Below are positions 23,637-38,027 of a stretch of DNA of 64,000 bases, one piece after another; within the stretch, counting starts at the first letter, position 1; every line of letters starts with the position of its first letter. A program made the translations under genes and the position numbers. The DNA comes from an uncultured Candidatus Saccharibacteria bacterium (GTDB lineage: Bacteria > Patescibacteriota > Minisyncoccia > Phycocordibacterales > UBA918), in contig CAZXUO010000001.1 in assembly GCA_964643955.1 (NCBI GenBank), forward strand, positions 171,828 through 235,827, in the 5' to 3' direction. The notes under the pieces were generated by a model. The model made no database searches. It saw only the letters and a list, made by a program, of their open reading frames with translations, and was not told the DNA's origin.

Positions 23637-23727
23637 ATTAGACAAAAGCTAGTCCGCTGCGAATTCCTGCTTTACATATTTAAGATTAATGTTATAGTGC
23701 CCGCGCATCTATTTTTTAAAATTTCTC

Positions 23728-24672
23728 ATGAAAGACCTCCAATCTGTGGCTTATTCTGTCGTAGTTCCTATATATAATGAGGAAGGCAATGTTGCTGAAC
23801 TCCATAACCGTATTAAGACAGCCTGCACTGCGCTAAATAAACCTTTCGAAATCATCTTTGTTGATGATGGTTCTACGGACAATACCCTTGCTGCATGTCG
23901 TGATCTCTCGCCTCTTGTACTTATTGAGCTGCGCAAAAATTTTGGCCAAACAGCGGCATTTGATGCAGGACTTAAACAAGCGCAAGGTGAAATTATTATC
24001 ACCCTTGATGGAGACCTCCAAAATGACCCCGCTGACATCCCACTCCTGCTCAAGAAACTGGACGAAGGATATGACGTGGTTTCAGGTTGGCGCTTTGACC
24101 GAAAGGATTCTCTGGGTAAACACATATCTTCCCGCATTGCGAATATGCTTCGCAAACTCCTTTTCAAAGATTCCATTCATGACTCTGGATGTGCGCTTAA
24201 AGCCTACCGACGTGAGTGTTTCGAATTTCTTGATTTGTACGGAGAAATGCATCGCTTCATCCCTGCACTCCTTGCGATTCAAGGTTTCAAAATCGGAGAA
24301 GTAAAAGTGAGTCATCACCCACGTACCCGCGGAAAGAGTAAATATAATTGGCGCCGTTATCTCAAAAGCATCGTCGATATGATATCGGTGTGGTTTTGGG
24401 GAAATTTCTCTCATCGACCACTCCACCTTTTTGGTAGTGCCGGATTTGTACTTATCGGCATCGGAGGAACATTTATTCTATGGATGGCGATCGAAAAAAT
24501 ATTTTTAGGTACTGAGCTTGCAAGTAAAATTTGGCCACTCATGGGAGTATTTATGGTAGTTGCAGGTCTTCAGCTCTTTACGGTGGGTATTATTACCGAT
24601 ATCCTGGTAAAGACATATTATCGTGGTCATAACCGGATGAACTACTCCGTCCGCACCACGAAAAACCAGTAA
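23728..24672 (+). CDS. GT2 polyprenol-phosphate glycosyltransferase (GtrB/ArnC-like)
   Basis: VVVPIYNEEGN, IIFVDDGSTDNT and DGDLQNDP motifs, plus two C-terminal TM helices. Confidence 0.8.
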   Translation: MKDLQSVAYSVVVPIYNEEGNVAELHNRIKTACTALNKPFEIIFVDDGSTDNTLAACRDLSPLVLIELRKNFGQTAAFDAGLKQAQGEIIITLDGDLQNDPADIPLLLKKLDEGYDVVSGWRFDRKDSLGKHISSRIANMLRKLLFKDSIHDSGCALKAYRRECFEFLDLYGEMHRFIPALLAIQGFKIGEVKVSHHPRTRGKSKYNWRRYLKSIVDMISVWFWGNFSHRPLHLFGSAGFVLIGIGGTFILWMAIEKIFLGTELASKIWPLMGVFMVVAGLQLFTVGIITDILVKTYYRGHNRMNYSVRTTKNQ

Positions 24673-24680
24673 AATATCAT

Positions 24681-24974
24681 ATGGAATTTGTAGTCAAAGT
24701 TTTTGCTGCGTTCCTTGATCCCTGGGTAATCTTTGGATTTGCTGCACAGTTTATATTCTTCGGCCGCTTTGTCATTCAATGGCTTGCGTCTGAACGAACA
24801 GGTGTCGTGACCATTCCTCGATCTTTTTGGCACCTCTCCATCGTCGGTGCCATCATGATTCTGATATACGCCATACACAGGGAGGATATCGTCTTTATAG
24901 CGGGCCAGCTTATTGCACTTGCAATTTACCTACGCAATCTCGTACTCGACAAAAAGCGCTCAAAATCTGTTTAG
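24681..24974 (+). CDS. Small membrane protein of the lipid-A-disaccharide-synthase N-terminal-like type (partner of GtrB-like GT2)
   Basis: 97 aa with three TM helices. It sits immediately downstream of the GT2, a common two-gene arrangement. Confidence 0.45.
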   Translation: MEFVVKVFAAFLDPWVIFGFAAQFIFFGRFVIQWLASERTGVVTIPRSFWHLSIVGAIMILIYAIHREDIVFIAGQLIALAIYLRNLVLDKKRSKSV

Positions 24975-25127
24975 ACCACAAAACTTTACGAGTATTGAAT
25001 AATGTGCTATAGTCACTCTCGTAAGAAAGCTCTGGTCACTGAACGACTCCAGCGTTGTTAAGCCTCACAAGCCCTAAACCCTGGAGTGCTTTTTTTTGTA
25101 AAAAAAGAAGAATTAAATAATTACAAT

Positions 25128-26339
25128 ATGAAGAAGTACACCCGCATACTCACCATACTTGTTGCAATCATAATATTTGTAGGAATAGTATTTTCTGCAT
25201 GGCTTTTCGTGTTCAAAGACGAGCGAAACTACTCATCGATATTTCTCAACACATACCGAGCTGCAGTAATTGACTCAATCTGGGTAGCGTATCGAGAAAC
25301 CATTCAGGAAGATGGGCGTACGATCGATCGTGGGCGAAATTACCTCACCACATCAGAAGGACAATCATATTCACTGCTTCGATCTGTCTGGATGGATGAC
25401 CGAGATACATTTGAACAGGTGTTAAAATGGACAAAGCATAATCTTCAAAAACGCGAAGAAGACCAACTTTTTGCTTGGCTGTGGGGACAGCAATCAAATG
25501 GTCGATGGGATATCATCACCGAAGAAGGCGGACGAAACAGTGCTTCAGATGCTGATCAAGATATTGCGCTCGCACTTATTTTCGCAGCTGTACGCTGGAA
25601 TGATAGTTACTATCTTGATGAGGCAAACGAAATTCTTGATGACATATGGCGACAGGAAGTTGTCCATATAGGAAATCGTCCGTATCTTGTTGCGGGTAAC
25701 TGGGCACGCGATGAGATTCGCCCAACGATAAATCCATCATATCTTTCTCCAGCATGGTATGAGATTTTTGCGCGCGTAGACACCGAGCATGACTGGCTCG
25801 CAGTCAAGGATACTTCGTATGAGGTATTAAACCGCGCTACATGGAATGAACTCGATCGCGGAACCGCAGTTGGACTTCCTCCTGACTGGGTCTCGATCGA
25901 TCGAACGACAGGCGCCATTGTCCCATCGATGCATGCAGACAAAACGACTAATTTCTCTGACGACGCATTTCGTACTTTTTGGCGAGTCGGCCTCGACTGG
26001 GAATGGCATCAAGATGAGCGCGCATACGAATATCTCAACCGCATAACATTTCTTAAGGATGAATGGGAAAAACGAGGACTTGTGTACGGAACATATGGTC
26101 ATGACGGCTCGCTCACAAAAACCGAGGAGAGCAGCTCTCTCTACGGAGTTTTACTTGCATATTTCTCAATCGTAGATAAGGAAATAGCACAAGAAATATA
26201 CGATAAAAAAATAGCAGAGTACTACGACACCGATACGGAGAATCTAAAAGACTATCTTGGATACTACCCACAAAACTGGGTATGGTTCGGCATGGCCTTT
26301 TACAATGACCGACTCCCCAACTTAGCGGATCCTGATTAA
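25128..26339 (+). CDS. Glycoside hydrolase family 8 (BcsZ-like endoglucanase), membrane-anchored
   Basis: TTSEGQSYSL and ASDADQDIALAL (GH8 catalytic region), with an N-terminal TM anchor. Confidence 0.65.
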   Translation: MKKYTRILTILVAIIIFVGIVFSAWLFVFKDERNYSSIFLNTYRAAVIDSIWVAYRETIQEDGRTIDRGRNYLTTSEGQSYSLLRSVWMDDRDTFEQVLKWTKHNLQKREEDQLFAWLWGQQSNGRWDIITEEGGRNSASDADQDIALALIFAAVRWNDSYYLDEANEILDDIWRQEVVHIGNRPYLVAGNWARDEIRPTINPSYLSPAWYEIFARVDTEHDWLAVKDTSYEVLNRATWNELDRGTAVGLPPDWVSIDRTTGAIVPSMHADKTTNFSDDAFRTFWRVGLDWEWHQDERAYEYLNRITFLKDEWEKRGLVYGTYGHDGSLTKTEESSSLYGVLLAYFSIVDKEIAQEIYDKKIAEYYDTDTENLKDYLGYYPQNWVWFGMAFYNDRLPNLADPD

Positions 26340-26347
26340 ACATACGT

Positions 26348-27940
26348 ATGGACGATTCGCGAACGACAAACATGTACTACATAAGCGCACAGGTGCCGCG
26401 AGTTCTTATACTTATCGCTGCTGCACTTTCGCTCTGGTACCTTACCTGGTGGTTTGACTTTTCTCGCGCGGGATCGATTACGTTGTTTGTACTCCTCTTT
26501 ATTGGTGAAATCTACCATGTATGGCAATCACTCGGTTTCCTCCATACCGTTTGGGATATGAAGAAAGTCGAACACAAAGTGAGCGTTACGAATCCTCTCG
26601 TCGATATTTTCATTACCGTCTGTGGTGAACCAGTTGATATTGTCGAGCAGACCGTACGTGGCGCACTTGCCATTAACTACCCAAATTTTACCGTTCACAT
26701 TCTTAACGATGGAAAAGTTGCTCGGAAAGAAAATTGGGAGGAAATTATCACGCTCGGAAAATCACTCGGGGTCAACGTTATTACACGCGAGATCCCTGGC
26801 GGTGCGAAAGCCGGAAATATCAACCACGCACTCAAGCTAACGTCAGCGCCATTTTTTGCGCTATTTGATGCTGACCACGTACCACACCCTGAGTTTCTTG
26901 AGCGCACCATGGGCCACCTTGAGGACCCAAAAATGGCTATCGTCCAATCGCCTCAATATTATATAAACAAGGGTGAAAATTTCTTGACGCGTGCGTCATG
27001 GGAACAGCAAGAACTTTTCTTTGGACCAATCTGTATTGGAAAGAATCGTCATAACGCTACCTTTTGGTGTGGCACCAATGCAGTCGTTCGTCGCACAGCC
27101 ATCGAAAGTATCGGAGGCGTTCCTGAGGACAATATTGCTGAAGATTTCTGCGCTTCGCTTTTCATTCATCAACGCGGATGGAAAACGCTTTTTATACCCG
27201 AGATCCTTGCAAAAGGCCTTGGTCCAACGGATCTAAAATCATTCTTCAATCAGCAATTCCGCTGGGCACGCGGATCTTTGGAGCTTGTATTTCGCTATAA
27301 CCCATTCTTTCGCAAAGGACTTACGTTTGCTCAGCGTTCACAATATCTCTACTCTGCCGGCTACTACCTAAGCGGCCTAATCATTTTGATCGATGCGGTC
27401 GTACCTCTCGTAGTACTTCTTACCGGTATTCGTCCTGTCGAAGACTCAACAGGAAACTTTATCATTTATTTCTTTCCATTCATCTTCATCACGCTCTATG
27501 TACTCATGCGTGCGACAAACTATTCGATAACATTCCGAGCTGTTCAGCTTTCAATGAGCTCGTTCTTCATCTTTATTCTTGCAGCTATCTCAACAATCAC
27601 TGGAAAAAAGTCTGCATTTAAAGTTACTGACAAACGTGCAGCGCAAGGAAACTACCTCATGTACGCACTCCCTAATATTATCTATACCGTTGCTACAGTA
27701 TTGATAATTGCATTTGCCCTATACATGCACGGACCAACTCCGCACGTCATCACAAACGCAGCGTGGGCAATCTTCAACGTTGTATTCTTCTTCCCATTCA
27801 TTGTTGTTGCGTATCCATGGCGAACTGAAGCAAACCACCTTTTGGAAAAAGCGAATCACCGCATAAACAGCACGACATTTGGTAAGTATGTAAATACTCA
27901 CACGATGATAATGCTCAATTCAGTAAAAAAACTATGGTAA
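26348..27940 (+). CDS. Cellulose-synthase-like processive GT2 (BcsA-like) with no recognisable PilZ domain
   Basis: D, DAD (FDADHVP), ED (NIAED) and QQFRWARG (QxxRW) motifs are present. The C-terminus is multi-TM and lacks the RxxxR/DxSxxG PilZ signature. Confidence 0.7.
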   Translation: MDDSRTTNMYYISAQVPRVLILIAAALSLWYLTWWFDFSRAGSITLFVLLFIGEIYHVWQSLGFLHTVWDMKKVEHKVSVTNPLVDIFITVCGEPVDIVEQTVRGALAINYPNFTVHILNDGKVARKENWEEIITLGKSLGVNVITREIPGGAKAGNINHALKLTSAPFFALFDADHVPHPEFLERTMGHLEDPKMAIVQSPQYYINKGENFLTRASWEQQELFFGPICIGKNRHNATFWCGTNAVVRRTAIESIGGVPEDNIAEDFCASLFIHQRGWKTLFIPEILAKGLGPTDLKSFFNQQFRWARGSLELVFRYNPFFRKGLTFAQRSQYLYSAGYYLSGLIILIDAVVPLVVLLTGIRPVEDSTGNFIIYFFPFIFITLYVLMRATNYSITFRAVQLSMSSFFIFILAAISTITGKKSAFKVTDKRAAQGNYLMYALPNIIYTVATVLIIAFALYMHGPTPHVITNAAWAIFNVVFFFPFIVVAYPWRTEANHLLEKANHRINSTTFGKYVNTHTMIMLNSVKKLW

Positions 27941-29676
27941 ACCTTCGTAACAACGCGCATTTCGCTTTTGCTTTTGCGGCCATCATACTCATTGGTATTT
28001 CCGTCCGACTTATCGGCATTTCTACCGAAAGTCTTCGTCTTGATGAGGCACAGAGTATTTGGCAAGCTTCTCATTCGATGGAGTTCATTCGGCAATACAT
28101 GCTGAAGAACGTGCACCTACCCCTCCACAACACACTTCTCCATGTATGGATGCAGTTCTTTGGCACAAGTGAAGCTTCGGTGCGCATGCTCGCGGCAATT
28201 CCAGGGATACTCTTTTTGCCTGCAATCTATCTCCTTGCTCGTGAATTTATGGCTCGACACTGGGCACTTGTTGCAATGACACTTGCCTCGATCGCCCCAA
28301 TCTTCGTTTGGTACAGTCGCGAAATTCGCATGTACTCTTTGCTTATCCTTATTGCTACCCTCTCGTTCTATCTCTATATCCGCATCCTTCGAGAGCCACG
28401 CATGCAATGGTATCTTCTCTACACAGCAGTAAACCTCATCGGCATTTACACACACTATTTCTTTATTTGGACACTTGTTGTTCAGCTCATTTTCTTTTTC
28501 GCAACGTGGAATATCGATTTTACGTCACACATTAAGAAAACGAAACGCCAGATCTTTATTGGACTTTCTGTTGTGGCAGGACTGCTCCTTATTGCATTTA
28601 GTCCGTGGCTTTATGGACTTTTTAGCAGCCACGGCTCCGGTTCGCTTGCTCCTGTCTTTGGTGCACCAAACAGCTTCAACATGGCGCTCACGCTGTTTGA
28701 ATTTCTGTTCGGTTTTCAGCCAGACATAATTACCGGAGGACTCTTTGCGCTCTGGCCACTTATTACGCTCTTTGGGTTTATTTTCCTCGCAAAACGAACT
28801 CCTATACCGCCCCTTGTATGGCTCCTTGTTATCGGTATCTTTCTACCCATAACGCTCACGTTCATCATTAGCGTTACAATCAAGCCGCTTTACCTCACAC
28901 GATATTTGATGATTGCCGCACCACTGGTCTTCGTGTTTATTACGTGGTTTATCAGCGAACTCCCTAAGTATCGAGTATTTTTTACTTTGGCTATTGCCAC
29001 AGTACTTGTATGTACCCTTTACACACAACAGTTCCATCCTGAAAGCCCCGCTAAAGAAAACTACCGCGATGTTGCAACATACATTAACGCAGAAGTCACC
29101 TCACGCGATATTGTTGTTCTTGCGCCTCCCTATCTTATTTACCCGTTCCAATACTATTACACGGGACAAGCTCATACGACGAGTATGCCTATTTGGGATA
29201 AACGCGAAGGCGCAATCCCGGTAATCACACCTGAACTTCTCGCGCGCGACGCCGAAATAATCAAAGGGAGTAGAAAGCGCATATTTCTTATCGTAGGATC
29301 AGATCTTGTTGGTGCAAACGAAGCAAAAGACTACTTTGACAGCAATCTTACAAAGATTGATAAAAAACAGTTTTCCAAAAATCTTTGGCTTCACGTCTAT
29401 CAAGCTGAATACCTCACCGATAATCAGGATGTTGTCACTATCCCGCCACCATCACCGTCATCAACACCTGTGCCCACCTCAGAACACACCACACAAACAC
29501 CTTCTAATTCTGTTTCAAACATCTCTGGAACATATGTTATTCAACAGGGAGACACACTAACTTCAATCTCGAAGAAGATTTATGGAGACTCGAGCAAATA
29601 CCTGTACATTGCTGAATTAAATGGCATAGTAGACCCCAACACCATTATTTTAGGCCGTACTTTGCTGACCCCGTAG
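27934..29676 (+). CDS. GT-C fold membrane glycosyltransferase (PMT_2/ArnT-like) with a C-terminal LysM domain
   Basis: N-terminus RLDEAQSIW...FGTSEASVRMLAAIPG matches the ArnT/PMT_2 signature. At least 10 TM helices. The C-terminus YVIQQGDTLTSISKKIYGD...IAELNGI is a LysM domain. Confidence 0.55.
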   Translation: MVNLRNNAHFAFAFAAIILIGISVRLIGISTESLRLDEAQSIWQASHSMEFIRQYMLKNVHLPLHNTLLHVWMQFFGTSEASVRMLAAIPGILFLPAIYLLAREFMARHWALVAMTLASIAPIFVWYSREIRMYSLLILIATLSFYLYIRILREPRMQWYLLYTAVNLIGIYTHYFFIWTLVVQLIFFFATWNIDFTSHIKKTKRQIFIGLSVVAGLLLIAFSPWLYGLFSSHGSGSLAPVFGAPNSFNMALTLFEFLFGFQPDIITGGLFALWPLITLFGFIFLAKRTPIPPLVWLLVIGIFLPITLTFIISVTIKPLYLTRYLMIAAPLVFVFITWFISELPKYRVFFTLAIATVLVCTLYTQQFHPESPAKENYRDVATYINAEVTSRDIVVLAPPYLIYPFQYYYTGQAHTTSMPIWDKREGAIPVITPELLARDAEIIKGSRKRIFLIVGSDLVGANEAKDYFDSNLTKIDKKQFSKNLWLHVYQAEYLTDNQDVVTIPPPSPSSTPVPTSEHTTQTPSNSVSNISGTYVIQQGDTLTSISKKIYGDSSKYLYIAELNGIVDPNTIILGRTLLTP

Positions 29677-29709
29677 AGACTACTTCGTTGCAGTGGTACC
29701 ATTGTCCGG

Positions 29710-31302
29710 ATGAGGAATACTCTTCTCTTTCTTGGACTTATATTCATTGGAACAATTTTTTATGCAGCACATACGTATGCGAATACTCAAAATGATCTAG
29801 GTGCGCTCTACAATGAATGGAAGGAAGAATTTGTCACGCATGAAGGTGCAGGTGGCCATGCGCGCGTACTTCAAAACAAGGATCGTCAAACCACCGTATC
29901 AGAAGGACAGGGATACGGAATGCTTCTTGCAATTTACAACAATGATCCAGAAACATTTGATAAGTTGTGGAAGTATACGAAACAGTACCTCAACGATCGC
30001 GGACTCATGCACTGGCAAATTGACAAGACGGGTGCTGTCATCGGCAGAAACGGTGCAACTGACGGCGATGAGGATATAGCCTTCGCATTACTCGCAGCAT
30101 ACAAACAATGGGGTATGTACGAGGAGGATGCTCGTGCCTATATCGATGCGATTTTTACTCACGAAGTTGAAGCGGAGACATACGTACTTAAGCCGGGTGA
30201 TGTATGGGGCGGCTCTCGCATTACAAATCCGTCATATTGTGCTCCTGCATATTACCGTGAATTCGCAGAATTTACCGGTGAGGAAAACTGGCTTCGTGTA
30301 CTCGACACTTGCTATTCAATTATTAAAAAAGCACGCAATATCAATACAGGTTTGTTACCTGAATGGACAACCATTGACGGCGGCATCGCGTACGATCTTA
30401 CACATAACAAGAATCGCGATAATTTTTCTTACAATGCAATTCGAGTACCTTGGCGTATCTCAGTTGATTGGGTATGGAACCGCGATCCCCGAGCATACTC
30501 AATCAACGACCGCATGACCAACTTTTTCGACAATGAACGAAAATTATATAGCGGGTACACGCTCTCAGGAAAACCAATTGTTATATACTTTGATGCAACG
30601 TTCGCTGCAGGAATTGCTGCAGGATCACTTGCTTCAGATAATACTAAGTTCAGGGAGGAGATGACCGAACGATTGATACAAACAACATCAAATAGCTACT
30701 ATGGTGCGACACTACGCTTGCTGTCACTCATGCTTGTCATGGAGAAATTTCCAAATCTTGCAATCGCGCCTGAAGCACCTCCTGAAAATGAGGAGGAGCA
30801 CAGCACGACTACACCTGAAGTAATCCCATCAGCTCCGCAAGAGCAAGAAATTATTCCCGATTCAGATTCTGTAGAAACAGAACCCATCCCCCAAGAAGAC
30901 CTTGCCGGAGAGGAAGCGAACGTCGGTTCGACAACTCCCGAGATACTCCCTCCTGAAGAACTAGAGGTACCTGAAATTGAGACATCCGTCATCGTTGAAC
31001 CTGAAGAAAATCATACGATAATAATCGACAGTCCTGAAGATAGCGCTACACTTTCTGGAGAGAAGAAGATTAAGGCATATATTGAGAATCTATCACTCGA
31101 CAGCTATACAATGATTTATTCTGTTGATGACAAAATGGAAGACCACATGCATGACGCCGCGGGAATGTTTAAGCAGGCAAAAATCCAATTCGATTCATGG
31201 ACATGGAATGAGAGCGGCCCCTACCGTGTCGACATCACTGCATATGATCTTTCAGGAAATACTCTTGCTACGACTCACATAGAAATCTACGTAAAACACT
31301 AG
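29710..31302 (+). CDS. Second GH8 glycoside hydrolase with an acidic linker and a C-terminal Ig-like domain
   Basis: TVSEGQGYGM and ATDGDEDIAFAL motifs. The C-terminal linker is Glu/Pro-rich. Confidence 0.65.
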   Translation: MRNTLLFLGLIFIGTIFYAAHTYANTQNDLGALYNEWKEEFVTHEGAGGHARVLQNKDRQTTVSEGQGYGMLLAIYNNDPETFDKLWKYTKQYLNDRGLMHWQIDKTGAVIGRNGATDGDEDIAFALLAAYKQWGMYEEDARAYIDAIFTHEVEAETYVLKPGDVWGGSRITNPSYCAPAYYREFAEFTGEENWLRVLDTCYSIIKKARNINTGLLPEWTTIDGGIAYDLTHNKNRDNFSYNAIRVPWRISVDWVWNRDPRAYSINDRMTNFFDNERKLYSGYTLSGKPIVIYFDATFAAGIAAGSLASDNTKFREEMTERLIQTTSNSYYGATLRLLSLMLVMEKFPNLAIAPEAPPENEEEHSTTTPEVIPSAPQEQEIIPDSDSVETEPIPQEDLAGEEANVGSTTPEILPPEELEVPEIETSVIVEPEENHTIIIDSPEDSATLSGEKKIKAYIENLSLDSYTMIYSVDDKMEDHMHDAAGMFKQAKIQFDSWTWNESGPYRVDITAYDLSGNTLATTHIEIYVKH

Positions 31303-31316: not shown

Positions 31317-32537
31317 TTACCGCAACTCAACATCTTCCTCGATCTCTTCGTCATCACGTGACGGCATAAAAAGCAAATGTGAAATAAAGAACCAAATGAC
31401 AGAAAGAATTGTGGCAATCAACATCGGGAGGAAAAGACAATCGTACCAGAAGAAATATGAGAGTACCGCAACGACTGCATACCAACCCATATGCCAGTAG
31501 TGGTACGCCGACGGATTCCATGGGCGCATATCATGGTATCGCTCGCGGAAATCGAAGAAGAACCAGCCGATCATAAAGAGAAGTGCGAGGAGCCACCAGT
31601 CGCACAAGAGTAATAACTTATTGAGGAGCACCAGCACCACAACCATGAGTGCGGCAAAAATCGAGTTGCGTGAAAATGCACGGCGAGAGCCATACACTTC
31701 GTTTCGCAATCGCAGATCACGGATGAGAACCCAGCCATAAAAGATACCGAGCACGATGAGAAGTATCGGCATCACGCAGGCACAGTCAACCGAGATAATG
31801 TCAGAAACTCCTGCGACGATTCCGTCTGGCAACGTCGTGCTCCCTGTGCCCGTTGCTTCACCGAGCACCTGCGGCTCACCCGCACCTTCTGCTCCTGCTA
31901 CGCTTCCTGAAGGGACAAGTGGAACTGCAAACGGAAATCCGCCGCCAGTACCGAAGTCTTCAGGAGTTCCCGTGTCACCATCCCCGTCACCATCGCCGTC
32001 CCCGCTTGAGCGCGAACCACCGCCCCCTGTACTACCCCCTCCGTCACCATCCCCATCTCCGTCGCCATCACCACCCGAAGTTTCGCCATCGTCACATTCA
32101 AAATTCCCACCTGCAAACCCTATACAAAGATCAAACGAGAGCGATGCATACTGGTATTCATTTCCCGATTCAGGGAAGAATGTCATGCGATAGGTATAGA
32201 CCGTCGATGCGCCGTTTGAAAGTGTACTGAGCCCTACTTTTCCTGCTGTATCGAAATCGACAAATGATCCCGTGAAAAAATCTCCATTGTTGATGATGAC
32301 TCCCATTGCGTCGCCGAGTCCGTCGTCGTCAACCACATTGATAAGTTCGGTATATACACTCTTATCTTCACCGCTATTATTGGTGACCGTCACCGTCTTT
32401 GTGATGGTATCGCCCGGAAGAAAATTAGACTCACCGAAAAGCGGTACGGTCTCGAACTGCACCTCAAGTGGCGCGGCCTGCACACTGCCCGCAAAAAAGA
32501 AGAGTGAGACTGCGCAGATTGTAAGAAAATATTTCAT
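31317..32537 (-). CDS. Secreted and membrane-anchored protein: signal peptide, beta-rich domain, (GD)n linkers, an EPQVLGE motif and a C-terminal multi-TM domain
   Basis: GDGDGDGDGDGGG and GDGDGDGDGDTG low-complexity linkers. At least 5 C-terminal TM helices. Confidence 0.4.
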   Translation of the reverse strand: MKYFLTICAVSLFFFAGSVQAAPLEVQFETVPLFGESNFLPGDTITKTVTVTNNSGEDKSVYTELINVVDDDGLGDAMGVIINNGDFFTGSFVDFDTAGKVGLSTLSNGASTVYTYRMTFFPESGNEYQYASLSFDLCIGFAGGNFECDDGETSGGDGDGDGDGDGGGSTGGGGSRSSGDGDGDGDGDTGTPEDFGTGGGFPFAVPLVPSGSVAGAEGAGEPQVLGEATGTGSTTLPDGIVAGVSDIISVDCACVMPILLIVLGIFYGWVLIRDLRLRNEVYGSRRAFSRNSIFAALMVVVLVLLNKLLLLCDWWLLALLFMIGWFFFDFRERYHDMRPWNPSAYHYWHMGWYAVVAVLSYFFWYDCLFLPMLIATILSVIWFFISHLLFMPSRDDEEIEEDVELR

Positions 32538-32548
32538 AAATAAAATAA

Positions 32549-34633
32549 TTATTCGACCGGTGGCTCTGGCTCCGTCGTAGGTTCAGGCTCTGCGGGCGTC
32601 TCCTCTTCAGCAGGCGCTTCTTCGACTTCTTCTACAACATCTTCAACGACCATAAGATCATCTTCTGGCTGGACCTCGACAATTGGTTCTTCCTGCTCTT
32701 GCTCAACGGGTTCTACCACTGGCTCCGGCGGAAGAATATCTTCTTCACGCACGTCTCCAAGATCAGTAGAGCCGCCGGTCGATTGCTCATCGGTAGGTGG
32801 TGTCGCTTCAAGCACCGGCGCTGTCGACGATGCAGTTGAAGATGCCGTCGGCGTGACCGGTGCAATCTCCGGCGTAATCACTTCCTCTTCTGCAATGAGA
32901 AGCGCTTCAATTTCAGCATCAGTCATTTCAGGAAGTTCCTCAAGTCCTTCTGATATAGGAGCGACCTCAACACCTTCCATAGTGAAGCGAAGAATCTCGA
33001 TATCGTCTGATCCCGGATTGGTACCTGGATTTGGTGTCGCATTGAAAATCCAATCAGAAGCCGCGTCAGTGTCCCAGCCTTTCACCACGCGCGCGATCGA
33101 CTTGCCATCGAGTCCCGTGATGCCGACCGAAGGATTAAGCGCGACGGTATCGGTACCATAGCTTACTTGATCGACGACGACATCAGCGCCATCGCGGAGA
33201 ATCACGCGATCACCACCATCAGCGAGCCCATTGCCGAGCGATACGCCGAGCGCGATTTTAACCGCTGAAGCTGGGATGTCAGTCCAGTGGAGCGCAAATG
33301 TACTCGAGGCATTCGTGACGACCGCAAATCCATATGCAGGGATCGGTGTCGTAAGAAGCGGAATCATGTCGCAGCTCGTATTGTCACAAATATCCCATCC
33401 CGAAATATCAATCGGTGCAGCCGTCGGATTGTAAAGCTCTACCCACTCATTGTTTGTATCAGAGCCATGACCCGAATCTACATCATAGAAAACCTCGTTC
33501 ACGACCATGTGCGTGGTTGGTGCGACCGGCGCATCGATCGCCACCTCGAGGACTGGTCGTACATCGCTCTGACTTTGGTGCTCTGAGCTGCGGAACTTTC
33601 CCGAGCGGCTTCCGCTCTCAGGAAGCGCGTCGACATCCGCAAGCTTCCATCCATAGTTTGAGAAACTTCCATTTACAAAACCTGCGACATCACTCGTGAC
33701 ATCCCAGGACATCCACTTCGCATTCCCATCACCCGTACTCTCAGTGTCGGTCGGCGCAACCACCGCAGGCTTGCTATTCCACGTCACACTTCCCTCGCTC
33801 CACACTGCTGTCGCACGCGAGACTGCGTAATTGGTATTTGGCGTTGGTGCGGTGTAAAGATACGCCTTTAATTGTGCATCAGTGATGATCGAGCCGGGAG
33901 GAAGTGCGAAGTTGAATCCAACGAGCGCCTCAGAGTCCTTCGCACCAGACTGTCGACGAAGCTCAAGCTGCTGACTCGTGCCATTGTTGGTATTTGGCTG
34001 CTGCTCGTTTACATCAGTATCCATAATCGCTGCGATGTCAATCGTCGAAGTGCTTGTGTCGGACATGTTTTCCCACTGCGCTGTGGTGACGGCAAACGAT
34101 TCAGTCTCGACATCGTGATATGCCTTTCCTGAAGCAAAGCCAAACTGCCAACCATCAAACGTAATATCAAAATCGCAGGTCAGATTTGCGTATGAGCTGT
34201 CGACCGGCGGAAGCGAGGTGATGAAATCCCATGAGTTACCATCACCGGGGAAACTTGAGGTGCTGTGTGAGAAGCTTGCGAGCGGCCCCGTGTACACCGT
34301 GCTCGTTGCACGTTTTGCTTCGAGATTGAGTACGCCACAGAGTGGGCTCGTCGTCGCTGAAGTGAAAACGCGATATTCAAATGGCAATGAGTCGGTCGTG
34401 GTCGAAAGCGAGACAGGAAATGCCGGTGCACTGTTTTCAGGTGTGAGTCCGATGAATTCAGTCGTTGTGGTTGCGAGCATAAAATCAAGCTCTGCAGCAT
34501 CAAAAGAATTCTCTTCAGAAATTTCCGTATCGCTATAGTACGCCTGTGTGACACCCACTTGTGCGCAGCCGACCGTCGCAATGAGCGCGAATGCGAGTAC
34601 TTTTATTCCAAATTTATTTCTGAAGTTATGCAT
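32549..34633 (-). CDS. Large secreted protein (694 aa) with a SipW-cognate (TasA/camelysin-type) N-terminal signal
   Basis: The N-terminus ...GVTQAYYSDTEISEENSFDAAELDF matches the A[FY][FY]SDTE..(x)N.F.AG.LDL signature of SipW substrates. The C-terminal tail is Glu/Pro/Thr-rich. Confidence 0.55.
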   Translation of the reverse strand: MHNFRNKFGIKVLAFALIATVGCAQVGVTQAYYSDTEISEENSFDAAELDFMLATTTTEFIGLTPENSAPAFPVSLSTTTDSLPFEYRVFTSATTSPLCGVLNLEAKRATSTVYTGPLASFSHSTSSFPGDGNSWDFITSLPPVDSSYANLTCDFDITFDGWQFGFASGKAYHDVETESFAVTTAQWENMSDTSTSTIDIAAIMDTDVNEQQPNTNNGTSQQLELRRQSGAKDSEALVGFNFALPPGSIITDAQLKAYLYTAPTPNTNYAVSRATAVWSEGSVTWNSKPAVVAPTDTESTGDGNAKWMSWDVTSDVAGFVNGSFSNYGWKLADVDALPESGSRSGKFRSSEHQSQSDVRPVLEVAIDAPVAPTTHMVVNEVFYDVDSGHGSDTNNEWVELYNPTAAPIDISGWDICDNTSCDMIPLLTTPIPAYGFAVVTNASSTFALHWTDIPASAVKIALGVSLGNGLADGGDRVILRDGADVVVDQVSYGTDTVALNPSVGITGLDGKSIARVVKGWDTDAASDWIFNATPNPGTNPGSDDIEILRFTMEGVEVAPISEGLEELPEMTDAEIEALLIAEEEVITPEIAPVTPTASSTASSTAPVLEATPPTDEQSTGGSTDLGDVREEDILPPEPVVEPVEQEQEEPIVEVQPEDDLMVVEDVVEEVEEAPAEEETPAEPEPTTEPEPPVE

Positions 34634-35186
34634 GCGTATCAGTCTTTTCTGGTTCCTCTTTTGCTTCTTTTTTTGTTCGCAACTTTCTCAATTCATTCCA
34701 GAGTGCGACTCCCTCATCAAAAAGGACAAATCCTGCGGGAATGCCGATGAGTAATACGAAACCGAGCGGCTTCTTAGCAAAATCGAGGATGAATCCCATG
34801 TACGGAATCGAGAAGAAGACTTCTCCAAGTACCTGAGTACGCGGTATCGGCCGCGGATCAGGCGCGTTGTTGGCATCGCCTTTCGTGAGATACGAGATGC
34901 CACGACCGATCTCATCTACCTCGACGATGCGGTGCGTCGTCGGCACCTGATCGCCACGTTCAAAGTAGAAGGTGATGATATCACCCACTTGATAATCACC
35001 CGTTGGTCGCATCACAATGAGCGAGCCCGTCTTGATCTCAGGCTCCATCGAGCCGGACTGCACAATCTTTACTTCGAAGTTGCCTGGTACGGGCACGAGC
35101 GGCATGAGCAGCAGAAGACCAAGGAGAACCACTCCCACGATGAGTCCGTAATAGAGAATTGCGAAGAACTTTCCGATCATAAGCAT
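34626..35186 (-). CDS. sipW: Signal peptidase I, ER/archaeal type (SipW)
   Basis: SGSMEP box, a His-containing TTHRIV box (no Lys general base) and a TKGDANNAPD box. This differs from the P-type lepB at 5921. Confidence 0.75.
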   Translation of the reverse strand: MLMIGKFFAILYYGLIVGVVLLGLLLLMPLVPVPGNFEVKIVQSGSMEPEIKTGSLIVMRPTGDYQVGDIITFYFERGDQVPTTHRIVEVDEIGRGISYLTKGDANNAPDPRPIPRTQVLGEVFFSIPYMGFILDFAKKPLGFVLLIGIPAGFVLFDEGVALWNELRKLRTKKEAKEEPEKTDTHA

Positions 35187-35270
35187 ATCGAGGCTTAAAG
35201 ACTTAAGGCCTCATCCCTCCCCGCGATACTTCGCAGGGAGGGTGAGCCATCAAGACTTTAAAGAATTTCT

Positions 35271-37145
35271 TTAAAAGCCGAGAACGTCTCCGTTCAACAT
35301 GACGTCATCTACTTCAACAACCTGAGCTTTGTTGTACGTACCCATTCCTACTGATATACCGACAACTTTTGCTCCTGGATAAGCCGCAGCAAGCTGCTGA
35401 AGTGTGAAGTTGGTTGCGTATGCGCCACCTCCACCACTCACTCCGGCAGCTGTGGTAACTCCACTTGCCCACCACTTACCTTTTGTTTGATCGGCGCTCC
35501 ATGTCTGCTCAACACCAGTCATGATTGATGGTGGGTTGAGGTCATTGTGAGCGAAGATGTTGTAGTACGGTTCAAAGGTGATGTCCTTTGTAGTCGTACC
35601 CACACCATCTCCGTCGAGGTCAACAATGAGGCGAAGGCTCGCGTTTCCGTTTATAGGATCAAACGCTGAAACTTGCTTTGAGTCATACCTCACCATCGTG
35701 ACATCCTCTACATCGATATCTACACCGTAGTTGGTATAGCGAACGCGTGAGTTTACATCATCTGCAGTAACGAGCGTGATGAATCCATCCTCAACAACCA
35801 CATCTCCACCAGCTGATGATGTCTCAATCCACTCGTCCTCTTCTTCACCACCACCATTGTATTCTGCGATCACATCGGCGCATGAGAAGTCTGCGTTGTT
35901 GCGCTGCTGTACTGCGTATGCAGTGATGTCCGCAATGAGTGAGTCTGACTGTGATGCGTTGTCTACCGTAGAGCCATCACATTCGATCTCTCCATCATTG
36001 TTTGTCTGTGTACCTGCGCACCATGCGAGACCGAGGTATGCAGTTGTTGATGCAGTAAGACTGATCTCTTCTGGATTCCATGCATCTGCAAATGATGCGC
36101 CAGGACCAGCAATCACCGTCTCATCTCCTGCATCATATTCTCCATCTCCATTATCAACCCACGCGAAGAATTCAAGGACGCTGCCGAGCTCTCCAGTTGT
36201 AAGTCCATCTTCATCATCCTGTGATTCTGGCTCCGTCTGTGTATTGTCATCTTCCTCAATGTTATATGGGAAGACACACGCAAACGCATCATTGTCGAAC
36301 ACATGGAGTGAAATCACGTTTGTACCCCAGTCACCCGGCTTAATGTCGTTGAAGTTGAAGAACTTGTCTCCATCCGCAAGATCTTTTTCAGCCCAAAGGC
36401 GGCACATATTTTGGAAGTCTGTATCTGCAGCACATTCCTGTTCTGGACGTTCAATATTCAATTTGAACATCAAGCCTGCAGGGTTTGCTTCTGGTGTGCC
36501 GCCCTGTACTGCTTTGTTGCGAACGGTGATTTCAAGCACGTTCTCGCCAGTCTGTACCTCGGCCTGAAGTGCAGCTTGGAATGGCGCAGTATTTACAAGG
36601 TCGCCATAATTAAATTCAGTACCAAGATTGTTCACAATTTCTGTACCGTTGAGGACAATCTTGTAACCATTGTCAGCCGCAAGCGCAAGCGTAAGCGAGA
36701 TACCCGAAACGCCGCCATTCCACTGAAACTTGTTTTGGAATGTGTACTCTGCGTCTGTTGTGGTATCTGCCTGAAGCACTGGATTGGTTACCCAAATCCA
36801 CTGAGCAGGTGCAGCAGAAGCCTCTGGCTCCCATGCAGGGTGAACAAAACTCAACTCGACTGCATCCGTAGGAATTGGTCCTGCGTATGCACCATTGTCT
36901 GCAACAACGTCAGTACTTGCAGCAGACGAAAATACCGTCACGCTACATGTCTCACAGTCTGCGCCATTATACGTTTGCATTGCATGGTCTACCTTAAGAT
37001 CAATCGATCCAGCGGTAAACACGTTTCCTGCTGATGTCTCTGTATCACTGAAGAATGCGCCCGTTCCTGAGATCACAATCGCTGCGATTGCAGTGATGAG
37101 TCCGAGGCTCAAGAGCACTCGCTTTGTGTTAATAACTCCTGTCAT
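35271..37145 (-). CDS. Large secreted protein (624 aa) with a SipW-cognate signal (TasA-like)
   Basis: N-terminus ISGTGAFFSDTETSAGNVFTAGSIDLKVD is a near-canonical match to the SipW-cognate class. Confidence 0.6.
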   Translation of the reverse strand: MTGVINTKRVLLSLGLITAIAAIVISGTGAFFSDTETSAGNVFTAGSIDLKVDHAMQTYNGADCETCSVTVFSSAASTDVVADNGAYAGPIPTDAVELSFVHPAWEPEASAAPAQWIWVTNPVLQADTTTDAEYTFQNKFQWNGGVSGISLTLALAADNGYKIVLNGTEIVNNLGTEFNYGDLVNTAPFQAALQAEVQTGENVLEITVRNKAVQGGTPEANPAGLMFKLNIERPEQECAADTDFQNMCRLWAEKDLADGDKFFNFNDIKPGDWGTNVISLHVFDNDAFACVFPYNIEEDDNTQTEPESQDDEDGLTTGELGSVLEFFAWVDNGDGEYDAGDETVIAGPGASFADAWNPEEISLTASTTAYLGLAWCAGTQTNNDGEIECDGSTVDNASQSDSLIADITAYAVQQRNNADFSCADVIAEYNGGGEEEDEWIETSSAGGDVVVEDGFITLVTADDVNSRVRYTNYGVDIDVEDVTMVRYDSKQVSAFDPINGNASLRLIVDLDGDGVGTTTKDITFEPYYNIFAHNDLNPPSIMTGVEQTWSADQTKGKWWASGVTTAAGVSGGGGAYATNFTLQQLAAAYPGAKVVGISVGMGTYNKAQVVEVDDVMLNGDVLGF

Positions 37146-37214
37146 AACAGTTTGTAAAATTAATCTTTAAATAAATTTGATAAACCCACGCGCAGCTCTG
37201 GTGCTGAGCTGGTC

Positions 37215-37262
37215 TGGGTATAGAAAAAACGCCCCGCGCACGAATTACGTGCGAGAGGCGTT
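37215..37262. terminator. Long imperfect hairpin terminator (aacgccccgcgcacg aatta cgtgcgagaggcgtt) with A- and T-runs, embedded in a longer imperfect palindrome
   Basis: Located downstream of the sortase gene and upstream of the 624-aa gene. Confidence 0.55.
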
Positions 37263-38022: not shown

Positions 38023-38027
38023 AAGTC

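What the first reader, a model, noticed from the sequence alone, without database searches (positions are those of the whole stretch)
23728..31302. Cellulose-synthase-like cluster lacking PilZ and BcsB, with two GH8 hydrolases and a LysM-bearing GT-C glycosyltransferase
Gene order: a GtrB-like GT2 with its small membrane partner; GH8; a BcsA-like synthase with a QQFRW motif and no C-terminal PilZ domain; a PMT_2/ArnT-like protein with at least 10 TM helices ending in a LysM domain; and a second GH8 with an Ig-like domain. There is no recognisable BcsB and no c-di-GMP receptor. The PMT_2-LysM protein may substitute as the periplasmic or peptidoglycan-binding partner. This suggests a c-di-GMP-independent beta-glucan system tethered to peptidoglycan.
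Basis: partly seen in the sequence, partly recalled or inferred. Interest (0 to 1): 0.55.

Follow-up and report, generated by a model that had tools for sequence, protein, structure and literature searches.

The report
Cellulose-type synthase paired with GT-C enzyme
This Patescibacteria (CPR) genome carries a cellulose-synthase-like operon that lacks the usual BcsB subunit and c-di-GMP sensor; instead the synthase is always paired with, and in some lineages fused to, a lipid-sugar-dependent GT-C glycosyltransferase, an arrangement I could not find described in the papers I searched.

Summary
Six co-directional genes at 23728-31302 encode an ArnC/GtrB-like GT2, a LAB_N protein, a BcsZ-like GH8, a 530-aa BcsA homologue, a GT-C (PMT_2) protein ending in LysM, and a CelA-like GH8 with a C-terminal domain. 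No PilZ, BcsB, GGDEF or EAL domain was found in any ORF scanned across the 64-kb window.

In 80 Patescibacteria loci the triad GH8 / BcsA-like / GT-C is present wherever the contig extends far enough. At least 7 protein clusters (50% identity) are natural BcsA::GT-C fusions. The GT-C has a confident GT-C fold (closest in TM-score to ArnT) and an invariant Asp-Glu pair after TM1, so it is probably an enzyme and not only a scaffold.

A polyprenyl-phosphate-sugar GT2 with a small membrane module recurs next to the triad. That module is LAB_N here, LPG_synthase_TM in close relatives, and a fused GtrA/DPMS domain elsewhere. LAB_N models as a SemiSWEET fold and sits in GT2/GT-C operons of Proteobacteria. 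The extra hydrolase slot holds GH6, GH113 or GH8.

Best reading: a c-di-GMP-independent, β-1,4-glucan-type synthase physically coupled to a three-component lipid-sugar glycosylation system. The LysM peptidoglycan tether is confined to this small subclade. Verdict: new variant of a known kind.

The parts
23671..23698 (+). Promoter-like site (TTTACA-16-TATAGT, with TG) 30 nt upstream of the GT2 start codon
   Evidence: 10 of 12 matches. The total number of such sites in the region is not above the shuffled expectation, so this is weak evidence.
23728..24672 (+). Polyprenyl-phosphate glycosyltransferase of the ArnC/GtrB/DPMS type (GT2, 314 aa, two C-terminal TM helices). Inferred to make the lipid-linked sugar donor.
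   Evidence: Glycos_transf_2 1.8e-33; ArnC structures 9e-49 over residues 9-308; GtrB 3e-30; DPMS 1e-20. The sugar it transfers is unknown.
24681..24974 (+). LAB_N protein (97 aa, three TM helices) with a SemiSWEET-like fold. Candidate transporter or flippase for the lipid-linked sugar.
   Evidence: PF07578 9e-28. AF2 pLDDT 88.7. The top 14 Foldseek hits are all SemiSWEET, best 4x5m with TM 0.77/0.85 and rmsd 1.8 A. Homologues sit in GT2/PMT_2 operons in Massilia and Pararhizobium. Absent from all 80 related loci.
25128..26339 (+). Membrane-anchored BcsZ-like GH8 endoglucanase (403 aa from the ATG at 25128; an alternative GTG start lies at 25086)
   Evidence: PF01270 8e-45; BcsZ-type structures 7f81 7.5e-30 and 3qxf 7e-28. 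The acid Glu (TSEGQ) and the base Asp (DDAFR) are conserved in 75-77 of 78 aligned sequences. Lies directly upstream of the synthase in every untruncated locus.
26348..27940 (+). BcsA-like processive GT2 synthase and translocon, 530 aa, without a PilZ domain
   Evidence: CelA TIGR03030 4e-83; BcsA 4hg6 6e-53 (query 14-481 to BcsA 62-566); the catalytic and gating-loop (FxVTxK) motifs are conserved in 80 orthologues, with their key residues (near-)invariant; family median length 521 aa.
27934..29418 (+). GT-C glycosyltransferase core: about 13 TM helices (residues 1-367) plus an extracytoplasmic alpha/beta domain (residues 377-495). Overlaps the synthase stop codon by 7 nt.
   Evidence: PMT_2 2.3e-12. 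AF2 pLDDT 91.9 and pTM 0.83. Foldseek hits are STT3/PglB/AglB, ArnT (TM 0.53/0.57) and PMT. D37 and E38 are invariant in 98 sequences. Fused to the synthase in at least 7 protein clusters.
29533..29673 (+). C-terminal LysM domain of the GT-C protein, preceded by a disordered Ser/Thr/Pro linker (residues ~500-530)
   Evidence: PF01476 7e-6, above the Pfam cutoff. pLDDT is about 90 for residues 531-580 and below 50 for 509-530. Found only in the closest relatives.
29710..31302 (+). Secreted CelA-like GH8 (catalytic domain residues 30-349, nt 29797-30756), an acidic Pro/Glu/Thr-rich linker, and a C-terminal ~90-aa Ig-like domain (residues ~442-529, nt 31033-31296)
   Evidence: 1cem 7e-74. The acid Glu65 is kept, but CelA's base Asp278 aligns with Asn242. 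In relatives this gene slot holds GH6 or GH113 proteins carrying the same small domain.

Best explanation
The cluster is the local version of a module conserved across Patescibacteria. That module combines a synthase-dependent polysaccharide pathway with a three-component, lipid-carrier glycosylation pathway.

1. **Polymer synthesis.** The 530-aa BcsA homologue polymerises a UDP-sugar, most likely UDP-glucose into a beta-1,4-glucan, and threads the chain through its own TM channel. It has no PilZ domain and no BcsB partner, so it works without c-di-GMP gating. *The homology and the absence of PilZ and BcsB are shown. The substrate and linkage are inferred.*
2. **Partner enzyme.** The GT-C protein sits against the synthase in the membrane. 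*This is shown indirectly, by invariant adjacency and by natural fusions.*
3. **Donor supply.** The ArnC/GtrB-like GT2 loads a sugar onto polyprenyl phosphate at the cytoplasmic face. The SemiSWEET-fold LAB_N dimer helps move this lipid-sugar to the outer face. In relatives an LPG_synthase_TM protein or a GtrA/DPMS domain occupies the same place. *Inferred.*
4. **Transfer.** The GT-C, using its invariant Asp-Glu pair, transfers that sugar outside the membrane. The most likely acceptor is the emerging glucan, giving a decorated or branched chain. Less likely acceptors are a wall or protein acceptor of the same machinery. *Inferred.*
5. **Trimming.** The TM-anchored BcsZ-like GH8 trims or releases chains, as BcsZ does. 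*Inferred.*
6. **Lineage-specific additions.** In this subclade a LysM tail holds the GT-C and synthase complex against peptidoglycan. A second, CelA-like GH8 with an Ig-like domain and an Asn in place of the catalytic base acts as a secreted glucan-processing or glucan-binding accessory. *Inferred.*
For: **Synthase identity and missing regulators:**

**No BcsB, PilZ, GGDEF or EAL in the window:**

**Conserved triad.** tblastn and phmmer over 80 loci cover Parcubacteria/Paceibacteria, WWE3, Saccharibacteria, Microgenomates, Gracilibacteria and Doudnabacteria. GT-C is found in 76 loci and GH8 in 76; the four loci lacking each are all cut by contig ends. Two distant GT-C homologues (about 33% identity) sit in the same module.

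**Fusions.**
- L030 (995 aa), L065 (997 aa) and P0234 (1009 aa) are 60-69% identical to one another.
- A phmmer scan of 1.84 billion representatives followed by Pfam gives P0301, P0302, P0303, P0324, P0332, P0315 and P0329. Each has Cellulose_synt/GT2 followed by PMT_2 in one chain.

**GT-C looks like an enzyme.** The model is confident and the fold matches GT-C enzymes. RLDEAQS and about 30 other columns are invariant.

**Donor supply.**
- The GT2 aligns full-length to ArnC, GtrB and DPMS.
- A GT2 related to the window's ArnC/GtrB-like GT2 lies within 10 kb in 39 of 80 loci.
- Where checked, that GT2 is followed by LPG_synthase_TM (L003) or is fused to GtrA_DPMS_TM (L024, L044, L054, L086).
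- LPG_synthase_TM and GH8 form one continuous ORF in L002 and L005.
- LAB_N lies in GT2/PMT_2 operons of Massilia and Pararhizobium and has a SemiSWEET fold.

**Beta-1,4-glucan product.**
- The GH8 is BcsZ-like with intact catalytic residues.
- The second hydrolase slot is GH6 in many lineages. As far as I know, GH6 is a family with only beta-1,4-glucanase activities.
- The window's second hydrolase is CelA-like.
Against: - No biochemical data exist for any member of the family.
- The sugar nucleotide, the linkage, the lipid-linked sugar and the GT-C acceptor are all unknown.
- Only about half of the loci show a polyprenyl-phosphate GT2 within 10 kb, so the donor supply is not proven to be universal.
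- LAB_N is absent from all 80 related loci. Its role rests on gene position, its fold, and two proteobacterial operons.
- Some lineages carry mannanase-family hydrolases instead (GH113; GH26 next to a divergent fusion). A mannose-containing backbone, or a different polymer in those lineages, is therefore possible.
- The GT-C resembles protein O-mannosyltransferases as much as it resembles ArnT, so a protein acceptor is not excluded.
- The 80 loci were selected by similarity to this synthase. The adjacency statistics therefore describe this subfamily only.
Confidence: 0.5

Rival explanations
1. Scaffold model. The GT-C/LysM protein has lost or never uses transferase activity. It replaces BcsB as the structural partner that stabilises the synthase and guides the chain. 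Through LysM it ties the complex or the polymer to peptidoglycan.
For: No BcsB anywhere in the window. Invariant adjacency and fusions imply physical contact. From my own knowledge, BcsA needs the membrane anchor of BcsB for activity, so some partner is expected. LysM is present here.
Against: Asp37-Glu38 lie directly after TM1, where GT-C enzymes carry their catalytic acidic residues, and they are invariant along with many loop residues in 98 sequences. Polyprenyl-phosphate-sugar synthases and flippase-like modules co-localise with the triad. LysM is missing from most family members.
Confidence: 0.12
2. Protein O-glycosylation model. The GT-C is a PMT-like enzyme that glycosylates Ser/Thr/Pro-rich segments of exported proteins of the same module. 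Candidates are the linkers of the second hydrolase and of the GT-C itself, and the small S/T/P-rich anchored proteins encoded upstream of GH8 in relatives. Its link to the synthase is one of location only.
For: The Pfam family is PMT_2, NCBI names it GT39, and PMT structures are among the fold hits. S/T/P-rich linkers are visible in the GT-C and the second GH8. S/T/P-rich bitopic proteins are encoded just upstream of GH8 in many loci.
Against: It does not explain why the enzyme is fused to a polysaccharide synthase in at least 7 clusters. It also does not explain why this GT-C subfamily is never seen away from the synthase in the loci examined. The window itself has no small S/T/P-rich gene in the cluster.
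Confidence: 0.13
3. Lipid-primed glucan with en-bloc transfer. The GT2 makes polyprenyl-phosphate-glucose as a primer and the BcsA homologue elongates and exports it. The GT-C then acts like an oligosaccharyltransferase or ligase, moving the whole chain from the lipid onto a wall, lipid or protein acceptor. LysM positions it at the peptidoglycan.
For: The best Foldseek E-values are to STT3, PglB and AglB, which transfer glycans en bloc. The tight synthase/GT-C coupling and the LysM tail fit this model.
Against: No BcsA-type synthase is known to elongate a polyprenyl-linked primer (my own knowledge). The best TM-score is to ArnT, a single-sugar transferase. The model leaves LAB_N, LPG_synthase_TM and GtrA-like modules without a role. 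There is no direct evidence.
Confidence: 0.1
4. The polymer is not a beta-1,4-glucan. The synthase makes another beta-linked chain such as mannan, glucomannan, a mixed-linkage or beta-1,3-glucan, or an amino-sugar polymer. The GH8 enzymes match that polymer instead. This rival concerns the product only and is compatible with any of the models above.
For: The synthase scores far below the CelA equivalog cutoff (280 against 699 bits). GH8 also contains chitosanases, lichenases and xylanases. GH113 or GH26 mannanase-family genes occupy the accessory slot in some lineages.
Against: The best matches by a wide margin are cellulose synthases, not PgaC, NodC or HpnI. The conserved GH8 is closest to BcsZ-type enzymes. 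The window's second GH8 is closest to cellulase CelA. GH6 is the commonest accessory hydrolase.
Confidence: 0.2

Closest known systems
Proteobacterial Bcs cellulose synthase (BcsA-BcsB core with BcsZ; types I-III)
   Same: A BcsA-type GT2 with all catalytic and gating-loop motifs and an 8-TM channel region that aligns to solved BcsA. A BcsZ-like GH8 is encoded next to it with intact catalytic residues.
   Different: There is no PilZ domain, so no c-di-GMP switch. There is no BcsB and no outer-membrane BcsC. The obligate partner is a GT-C enzyme. The host is a Patescibacteria lineage.
Phosphoethanolamine-cellulose system of E. coli/Salmonella (BcsG with BcsE/F)
   Same: The same logic: a membrane transferase associated with the synthase that uses a lipid-borne donor to modify the chain as it emerges outside the membrane. 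This comparison rests on my own knowledge.
   Different: BcsG is an alkaline-phosphatase-type enzyme that uses phosphatidylethanolamine. Here the enzyme is a GT-C that would use a polyprenyl-phosphate sugar. The modification itself is only inferred.
Streptomyces CslA-GlxA-CslZ
   Same: A PilZ-less, BcsB-less BcsA homologue in a single-membrane bacterium, with an accompanying secreted glucanase. That glucanase is GH6 in Streptomyces as I recall. GH6 is also the usual accessory hydrolase in relatives of this cluster.
   Different: The Streptomyces partner is the copper radical oxidase GlxA. No such gene is present here, and Streptomyces has no GT-C partner.
Three-component lipid-carrier glycosylation systems (GtrA/GtrB/GtrC, CsbB/GtcA/YfhO, ArnC/ArnEF/ArnT, Ppm1/Pmt)
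   Same: A GT2 that aligns full-length to ArnC, GtrB and DPMS, a small membrane protein, and a GT-C transferase with a conserved acidic motif.
   Different: The small protein is a SemiSWEET-fold LAB_N, not GtrA or ArnE/F. The GT-C is locked to a processive polysaccharide synthase and is sometimes fused to it. Known systems decorate O-antigen, teichoic acids, lipid A or proteins.
Firmicute GH8-plus-synthase operons (B. subtilis ydaJKLMN, Listeria pssA-E/pssZ, clostridial ccsABZ)
   Same: A processive GT2 with a dedicated glycoside hydrolase in a monoderm (my own knowledge).
   Different: Those systems keep a BcsB-like subunit and/or a c-di-GMP receptor, and they have no GT-C partner.

Membership tests
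BcsA/CesA-type processive GT2 synthases | Catalytic motifs D, DxD, (T/A)ED and Q(Q/R)xRW, plus the FxVTxK gating-loop motif | tested here: met
   LNDG, FDADHVP, AED, QQFRW and FKVTDK are present, and their key residues are (near-)invariant in 80 orthologues.
BcsA/CesA-type processive GT2 synthases | Alignment across the TM channel and GT domain of a solved cellulose synthase | tested here: met
   Query residues 14-481 align to residues 62-566 of BcsA 4hg6 at E 6e-53. Plant CesA structures also match, at 1e-10.
Canonical bacterial cellulose synthase complex (Bcs) | C-terminal PilZ domain on BcsA that binds c-di-GMP | tested here: not met
   No PF07238 hit at E<=0.01. Only 49 residues follow the last aligned helix. 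The CelA model is matched only over positions 59-577 of 714. No PilZ in any of the 120 listed homologues.
Canonical bacterial cellulose synthase complex (Bcs) | BcsB subunit encoded with BcsA | tested here: not met
   No BcsB Pfam hit in any ORF of 150 aa or more scanned in the 64-kb window. None in the precomputed annotations of L083, L085 and L086. Very divergent BcsB-like proteins cannot be excluded.
Canonical bacterial cellulose synthase complex (Bcs) | BcsZ-type GH8 endoglucanase in the operon | tested here: met
   NCBIfam BcsZ 1.6e-43 (below the equivalog cutoff). Structures 7f81 and 3qxf are the best PDB hits. The catalytic Glu and Asp are conserved.
Canonical bacterial cellulose synthase complex (Bcs) | Product is beta-1,4-glucan made from UDP-glucose | not testable with these tools
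   Supported only by the associated GH8, GH6 and CelA-like hydrolases.
GT-C glycosyltransferases (ArnT/PMT/STT3-like class) | Multi-TM GT-C fold | tested here: met
   AF2 pLDDT 91.9 and pTM 0.83. There are 32 PDB matches at E<=1e-3, including STT3, PglB, AglB, ArnT (TM 0.53/0.57), PMT, ALG9, AftD and AftA. A sequence-profile search of the PDB found nothing.
GT-C glycosyltransferases (ArnT/PMT/STT3-like class) | Conserved acidic catalytic residues in the first extracytoplasmic loop | tested here: met
   R35-L36-D37-E38 lie directly after TM1. D37 and E38 are invariant in 98 sequences. Equivalence to the PMT 'DE' motif is inferred from position, not from a residue-level superposition.
GT-C glycosyltransferases (ArnT/PMT/STT3-like class) | Use of a polyprenyl-phosphate-linked donor | not testable with these tools
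   Indirect only: co-located homologues of ArnC, GtrB and DPMS.
Three-component Gtr-like glycosylation system | GtrB/ArnC-type polyprenyl-phosphate GT2 | tested here: met
   Full-length alignment to ArnC (9e-49) and GtrB (3e-30), with two C-terminal TM helices.
Three-component Gtr-like glycosylation system | GtrA-family (or ArnE/F) small flippase component | tested here: not met
   The small protein is LAB_N (PF07578) with a SemiSWEET fold, not GtrA. It works like one at most, judging by its position and its recurrence in GT2/GT-C operons.
GH8 glycoside hydrolases (second copy, 29710-31302) | Proton donor Glu and proton acceptor Asp (CelA Glu95 and Asp278) | tested here: inconclusive
   The Glu is kept (VSEGQ). 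The Asp278 position is Asn242, both here and in its three true orthologues. The role of Asp278 is taken from PMC5407803. An alternative base, as in subfamily GH8b, was not examined.
LysM peptidoglycan-binding domain | Match to PF01476 above the gathering score | tested here: met
   26.3 bits against a cutoff of 20.9, residues 534-580. The region is confidently modelled, with pLDDT about 90.

The most novel reading that the evidence does not exclude
Patescibacteria use a previously unrecognised class of synthase-dependent pathway. A BcsB-less, PilZ-less cellulose synthase is obligatorily coupled, and in some lineages fused, to an active GT-C transferase that glycosylates or anchors the nascent beta-glucan with a lipid-carried sugar. 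This yields a decorated or wall-linked glucan that is a major envelope or attachment polymer of these episymbionts. A corollary is that many GH6, GH8 and GH113 genes in CPR genomes are biosynthetic accessories and not evidence of cellulose or hemicellulose degradation.
Probability: 0.35. Interest if true: 0.78.

Novelty: new variant of a known kind. Interest (0 to 1): 0.62.

Why it matters
- **Mechanism.** It would show a third way to complete a bacterial cellulose synthase. BcsB with PilZ is one and CslA with GlxA is another. Here the partner is an enzyme of the GT-C class.
- **Testable question.** The natural single-chain fusions offer a ready-made target for cryo-EM. They make it directly testable how a polymer synthase hands its product to a lipid-sugar-dependent transferase.
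- **CPR biology.** The module spans many Patescibacteria lineages, which have small genomes and depend on attachment to hosts. A conserved surface glucan is a plausible attachment or envelope component.
- **Ecology.** Glycoside hydrolases in CPR metagenome bins tend to be read as evidence of polysaccharide degradation. The GH8, GH6 and GH113 genes embedded in this module suggest that some of them belong to biosynthesis.
- **LAB_N.** This family has no assigned function. The analysis links it, by fold and by gene context, to lipid-carrier glycosylation.

Tried and rejected
- **GT-C profile against PDB sequences.** A profile of 98 sequences gave no hit even at E<=1. Only the fold comparison placed the protein.
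- **LAB_N in the 80 related loci.** tblastn and phmmer found nothing. LAB_N is therefore not part of the conserved module. Its role was instead approached through its own homologues; one of the three contexts examined (L089) showed no GT2/GT-C pair.
- **Literature.** Eight full-text searches were run. Six looked for a CPR/Patescibacteria cellulose synthase or a BcsA/GT-C pairing and found no description. One on LAB_N/PF07578 returned only unrelated papers. One retrieved the GH8 catalytic-residue reference. The library lacks most subscription journals, so absence there is weak evidence.
- **Taxonomy of divergent fusions.** The listing of cluster members gave no organism names. No cultured host was identified.
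- **Promoters and terminators.** The number of hits was not above the shuffled expectation. The two promoter-like sites before the GT2 and before GH8 are suggestions only.
- **Independent neighbouring systems.** I considered that the GT2/LAB_N and GT-C genes form a system that merely neighbours the synthase. I rejected this because of the invariant adjacency and the fusions.
- **GH8 genes as foraging cellulases.** I rejected this for the upstream copy. It is TM-anchored and sits immediately upstream of the synthase in all untruncated loci.
- **Folding a natural fusion.** I considered this to test docking of the two halves. I did not do it because the tool returns no coordinates or PAE, and I used the last structure job on LAB_N instead.

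Full report
**1. What is in the window**

Region 23728-31302 holds six co-directional genes with operon-like spacing: 8 nt, 153 nt, 8 nt, a 7-nt overlap, and 33 nt. Their products are as follows.

- **GT2, 314 aa.** Glycos_transf_2 1.8e-33. It aligns over its full length to solved ArnC (9e-49), GtrB (3e-30) and DPMS (1e-20), and it ends in two TM helices.
- **LAB_N, 97 aa.** PF07578 9e-28.
- **GH8 with an N-terminal TM helix.** PF01270 8e-45. Its closest structures are BcsZ-type glucanases.
- **BcsA homologue, 530 aa.** CelA TIGR03030 4e-83. Residues 14-481 align to residues 62-566 of BcsA 4hg6 at 6e-53.
- **PMT_2 protein ending in LysM, 580 aa**.
- **Second GH8, 530 aa.** Closest to C. thermocellum CelA at 7e-74, followed by an acidic linker and a C-terminal domain.

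The window comes from a Patescibacteria (CPR) genome. The nearest homologues are named Parcubacteria, Yonathbacteria, WWE3 and Saccharibacteria.

**2. Missing parts**

- The synthase stops 49 residues after the last helix that aligns to BcsA.
- It has no PilZ hit, and none of the 120 listed homologues (495-574 aa) carries PF07238.
- I scanned the non-overlapping ORFs of 150 aa or more in the 64-kb window, taken as the likely genes, against Pfam. None had a BcsB, PilZ, GGDEF or EAL domain.
- The catalytic motifs (LNDG, FDADHVP, AED, QQFRW) and the gating-loop motif FxVTxK are conserved across 80 orthologues, with their key residues (near-)invariant.

**3. The conserved core is GH8 / synthase / GT-C**

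A scan of one genome per species returned 80 loci, nearly all titled as Patescibacteria lineages and spanning many of them. Mapping the six window proteins onto these loci gave these results.

- The GT-C is present in 76 loci and the upstream-type GH8 in 76.
- The four loci lacking each are all truncated by a contig end at that side.
- The gene order is GH8/synthase/GT-C in most loci and GH8/GT-C/synthase in nine.
- Two GT-C homologues only about 33% identical to the window protein lie in the same module.
- A bin labelled Chloroflexi shows it too.

**4. Natural fusions**

- Single ORFs encoding synthase followed by GT-C occur in L030 (995 aa), L065 (997 aa) and P0234 (1009 aa). These are 60-69% identical to each other, so the fusion has been kept through substantial divergence.
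- Searching P0234 against 1.84 billion representative proteins, then running Pfam, found seven 50%-identity clusters with Cellulose_synt/GT2 followed by PMT_2 in one chain: P0301, P0302, P0303, P0324, P0332, P0315 and P0329. Their identity to P0234 falls as low as about 29%.
- From my own knowledge of the BcsA and GT-C topologies, the cytoplasmic C-terminus of BcsA and the cytoplasmic N-terminus of a GT-C are topologically compatible.

Together with the 7-nt overlap of the two genes in the window, this argues that the two proteins work as one membrane complex.

**5. The GT-C looks like an enzyme**

- With a 98-sequence alignment, AF2 gives pLDDT 91.9 and pTM 0.83.
- The model has about 13 TM helices, an extracytoplasmic alpha/beta domain (residues 377-495), a disordered S/T/P linker, and a well-modelled LysM domain.
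- Foldseek returns STT3/PglB/AglB, ArnT (best TM-score, 0.53/0.57), PMT, ALG9 and Aft/Emb enzymes. A sequence profile alone found no PDB relative.
- Asp37-Glu38, in RLDEAQS directly after TM1, and about 30 other positions are invariant. From my own knowledge, this is where PMT- and ArnT-type enzymes carry their catalytic acidic residues.
- A pure scaffold would not be expected to preserve these residues.

**6. A lipid-sugar supply line travels with the triad**

- A GT2 related to the window's ArnC/GtrB-like GT2 lies within 10 kb in 39 of 80 loci.
- In the closest relatives it is followed by an LPG_synthase_TM protein (PF03706, 4e-28), which occupies exactly the position of LAB_N. As I recall, NCBI annotates this family as "flippase-like".
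- In two Yonathbacteria that protein and the GH8 form one continuous ORF.
- In other lineages the GT2 is fused to a GtrA/DPMS TM domain: L024, L044, L054 and L086.
- LAB_N itself is absent from all 80 loci.
- Its homologues in Pararhizobium (epimerase, GT2, LAB_N, PMT_2) and Massilia (GT2, PMT/PMT_2, PAP2, LAB_N) sit in the same kind of operon.
- Its AF2 model (pLDDT 88.7) superposes on SemiSWEET transporters at TM 0.77/0.85 and rmsd 1.8 A. The top 14 hits are all SemiSWEET.

Three non-homologous small membrane modules therefore occupy the same place beside a polyprenyl-phosphate GT2. This is the pattern expected for the carrier-handling or flipping step of a three-component glycosylation system. 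That function is inferred and not shown.

**7. What polymer?**

- The upstream GH8 keeps its acid Glu and base Asp in 75-77 of 78 aligned sequences and is closest to BcsZ-type enzymes.
- The accessory hydrolase slot is variable. It holds GH6 in many Paceibacteria-type loci, GH113 in some, and a CelA-like GH8 in the window and three relatives. All of these share a ~90-aa domain that in one homologue matches PKD/Ig-like models.
- GH6 and BcsZ/CelA-like GH8 point to a beta-1,4-glucan.
- GH113, and GH26 next to a divergent fusion, leave room for mannose-containing polymers or side chains in some lineages.
- The window's second GH8 has Asn242 where CelA has its proton acceptor Asp278 (the role of Asp278 is from PMC5407803). 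It may be a binding protein or may use another base.

**8. Most likely mechanism**

| Step | Status |
|---|---|
| BcsA-type synthase without PilZ or BcsB | shown |
| Synthase in obligate genomic association with, and sometimes fused to, a GT-C with conserved catalytic-type residues | shown |
| BcsZ-like GH8 in the module | shown |
| GT2 of the polyprenyl-phosphate class | shown |
| LAB_N with a SemiSWEET fold | shown |
| GT2 makes a lipid-linked sugar | inferred |
| LAB_N helps present that sugar outside the membrane | inferred |
| GT-C transfers it, most likely onto the emerging beta-1,4-glucan | inferred |
| GH8 trims the chain | inferred |
| LysM holds this subclade's complex at the peptidoglycan | inferred |

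I put about 0.5 on this model as a whole. The rivals are a scaffold-only GT-C, protein O-glycosylation, a lipid-primed glucan with en-bloc transfer, and a non-glucan product. Each is listed with its evidence and a refuting experiment.

**9. Comparison with known systems**

- **Bcs.** The system works like a Bcs synthase core with BcsZ, but it fails the Bcs membership tests for PilZ and BcsB.
- **Streptomyces CslA/GlxA/CslZ.** It shares the absence of PilZ and BcsB and the link to GH6, but the partner protein is different.
- **Gtr/Arn/Pmt three-component systems.** It shares their logic, but a SemiSWEET-fold protein replaces GtrA, and the GT-C is tied to a polymer synthase.
- **pEtN-cellulose BcsG.** In concept it resembles this system, with a lipid-donor transferase coupled to the synthase.

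Six full-text searches aimed at a CPR cellulose synthase or a BcsA/GT-C pairing found no description of this module. The library is incomplete, so this is not proof of novelty.

**10. Verdict**

The finding is best described as a new variant of a known kind: a Patescibacteria-wide, c-di-GMP-independent cellulose-type synthase module whose defining partner is a GT-C glycosyltransferase. The LysM tether, LAB_N and the second GH8 are local embellishments. Interest is 0.62.

Noticed in passing
window 41340-44846 (- strand): A second synthase-dependent polysaccharide pair. One gene encodes a 412-aa processive GT2 (Glyco_trans_2_3 1.2e-23, with a weak Chitin_synth_2 hit). The adjacent gene encodes a 648-aa protein with a polysaccharide deacetylase domain (5e-16). 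The pair resembles a PNAG-type PgaC/IcaA plus deacetylase system.
   Followed up: no
window 31317-39815 (- strand): A surface-protein cluster converges on the GH8 gene. It comprises:
- a 406-aa protein with no Pfam hit, made of a signal peptide, a GD-repeat region and a multi-TM tail;
- a CBM96/DNRLRE plus lamin-tail-domain protein;
- a SipW-type signal peptidase;
- a 624-aa protein with a SipW-dependent, camelysin-like signal;
- a sortase;
- a 595-aa protein with an InlB B-repeat-like domain.

The cluster is not seen in the related loci whose annotations I read.
   Followed up: partly
L020:8229-8768, L053:8127-8792, L025:650-1315, L066:8091-8786 and about 20 other loci: Many relatives encode a small protein (110-230 aa) immediately upstream of the GH8. 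It has a signal peptide, a long Ser/Thr/Pro-rich low-complexity region, a short semi-conserved juxtamembrane motif (Y..(G)L(S/N)....T..L(Y/L)) and a C-terminal TM anchor. It has no Pfam match. It could be a glycosylation substrate or a minimal BcsB-anchor analogue. The window has no such gene in its cluster.
   Followed up: partly
window 29710-31302, residue Asn242 (nt 30433-30435): The CelA-like GH8 has Asn at the position of CelA's proton acceptor Asp278. Its three true orthologues (L002, L005, L016) have the same. The upstream GH8 keeps Asp there.
   Followed up: partly
L090:1689-9635: A divergent synthase::GT-C fusion (P0324, 1057 aa) sits after a GT2, a CDP-alcohol phosphatidyltransferase-like gene, a GT4 and an LPG_synthase_TM gene. 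It converges on a GH26 (mannanase-family) gene. This hints at a related module that makes a different, possibly mannose-containing, polymer.
   Followed up: no
L002:7787-9973 and L005:1421-3646: The LPG_synthase_TM protein and the BcsZ-like GH8 are encoded as one continuous ORF (728 and 741 aa) in two Yonathbacteria genomes. This is an apparent fusion, although an internal start codon was not excluded.
   Followed up: partly
window 24000-30000: GC content drops to about 0.44 across the cluster, against about 0.50 in the flanks. LAB_N's nearest relatives outside the immediate subclade are from Proteobacteria and other phyla. Both points are compatible with lateral acquisition of part of the cluster.
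   Followed up: no
window 14277-14996 (- strand): A 239-aa ORF matches the alternative oxidase family (PF01786, 4e-9). That is unexpected in a Patescibacteria genome, which usually lacks a respiratory chain.
   Followed up: no
window 58623-63953 (- strand): A 1776-aa protein with at least 7 CARDB repeats (2.4e-74). It lies next to the RNase P RNA gene at 57657-58022.
   Followed up: no
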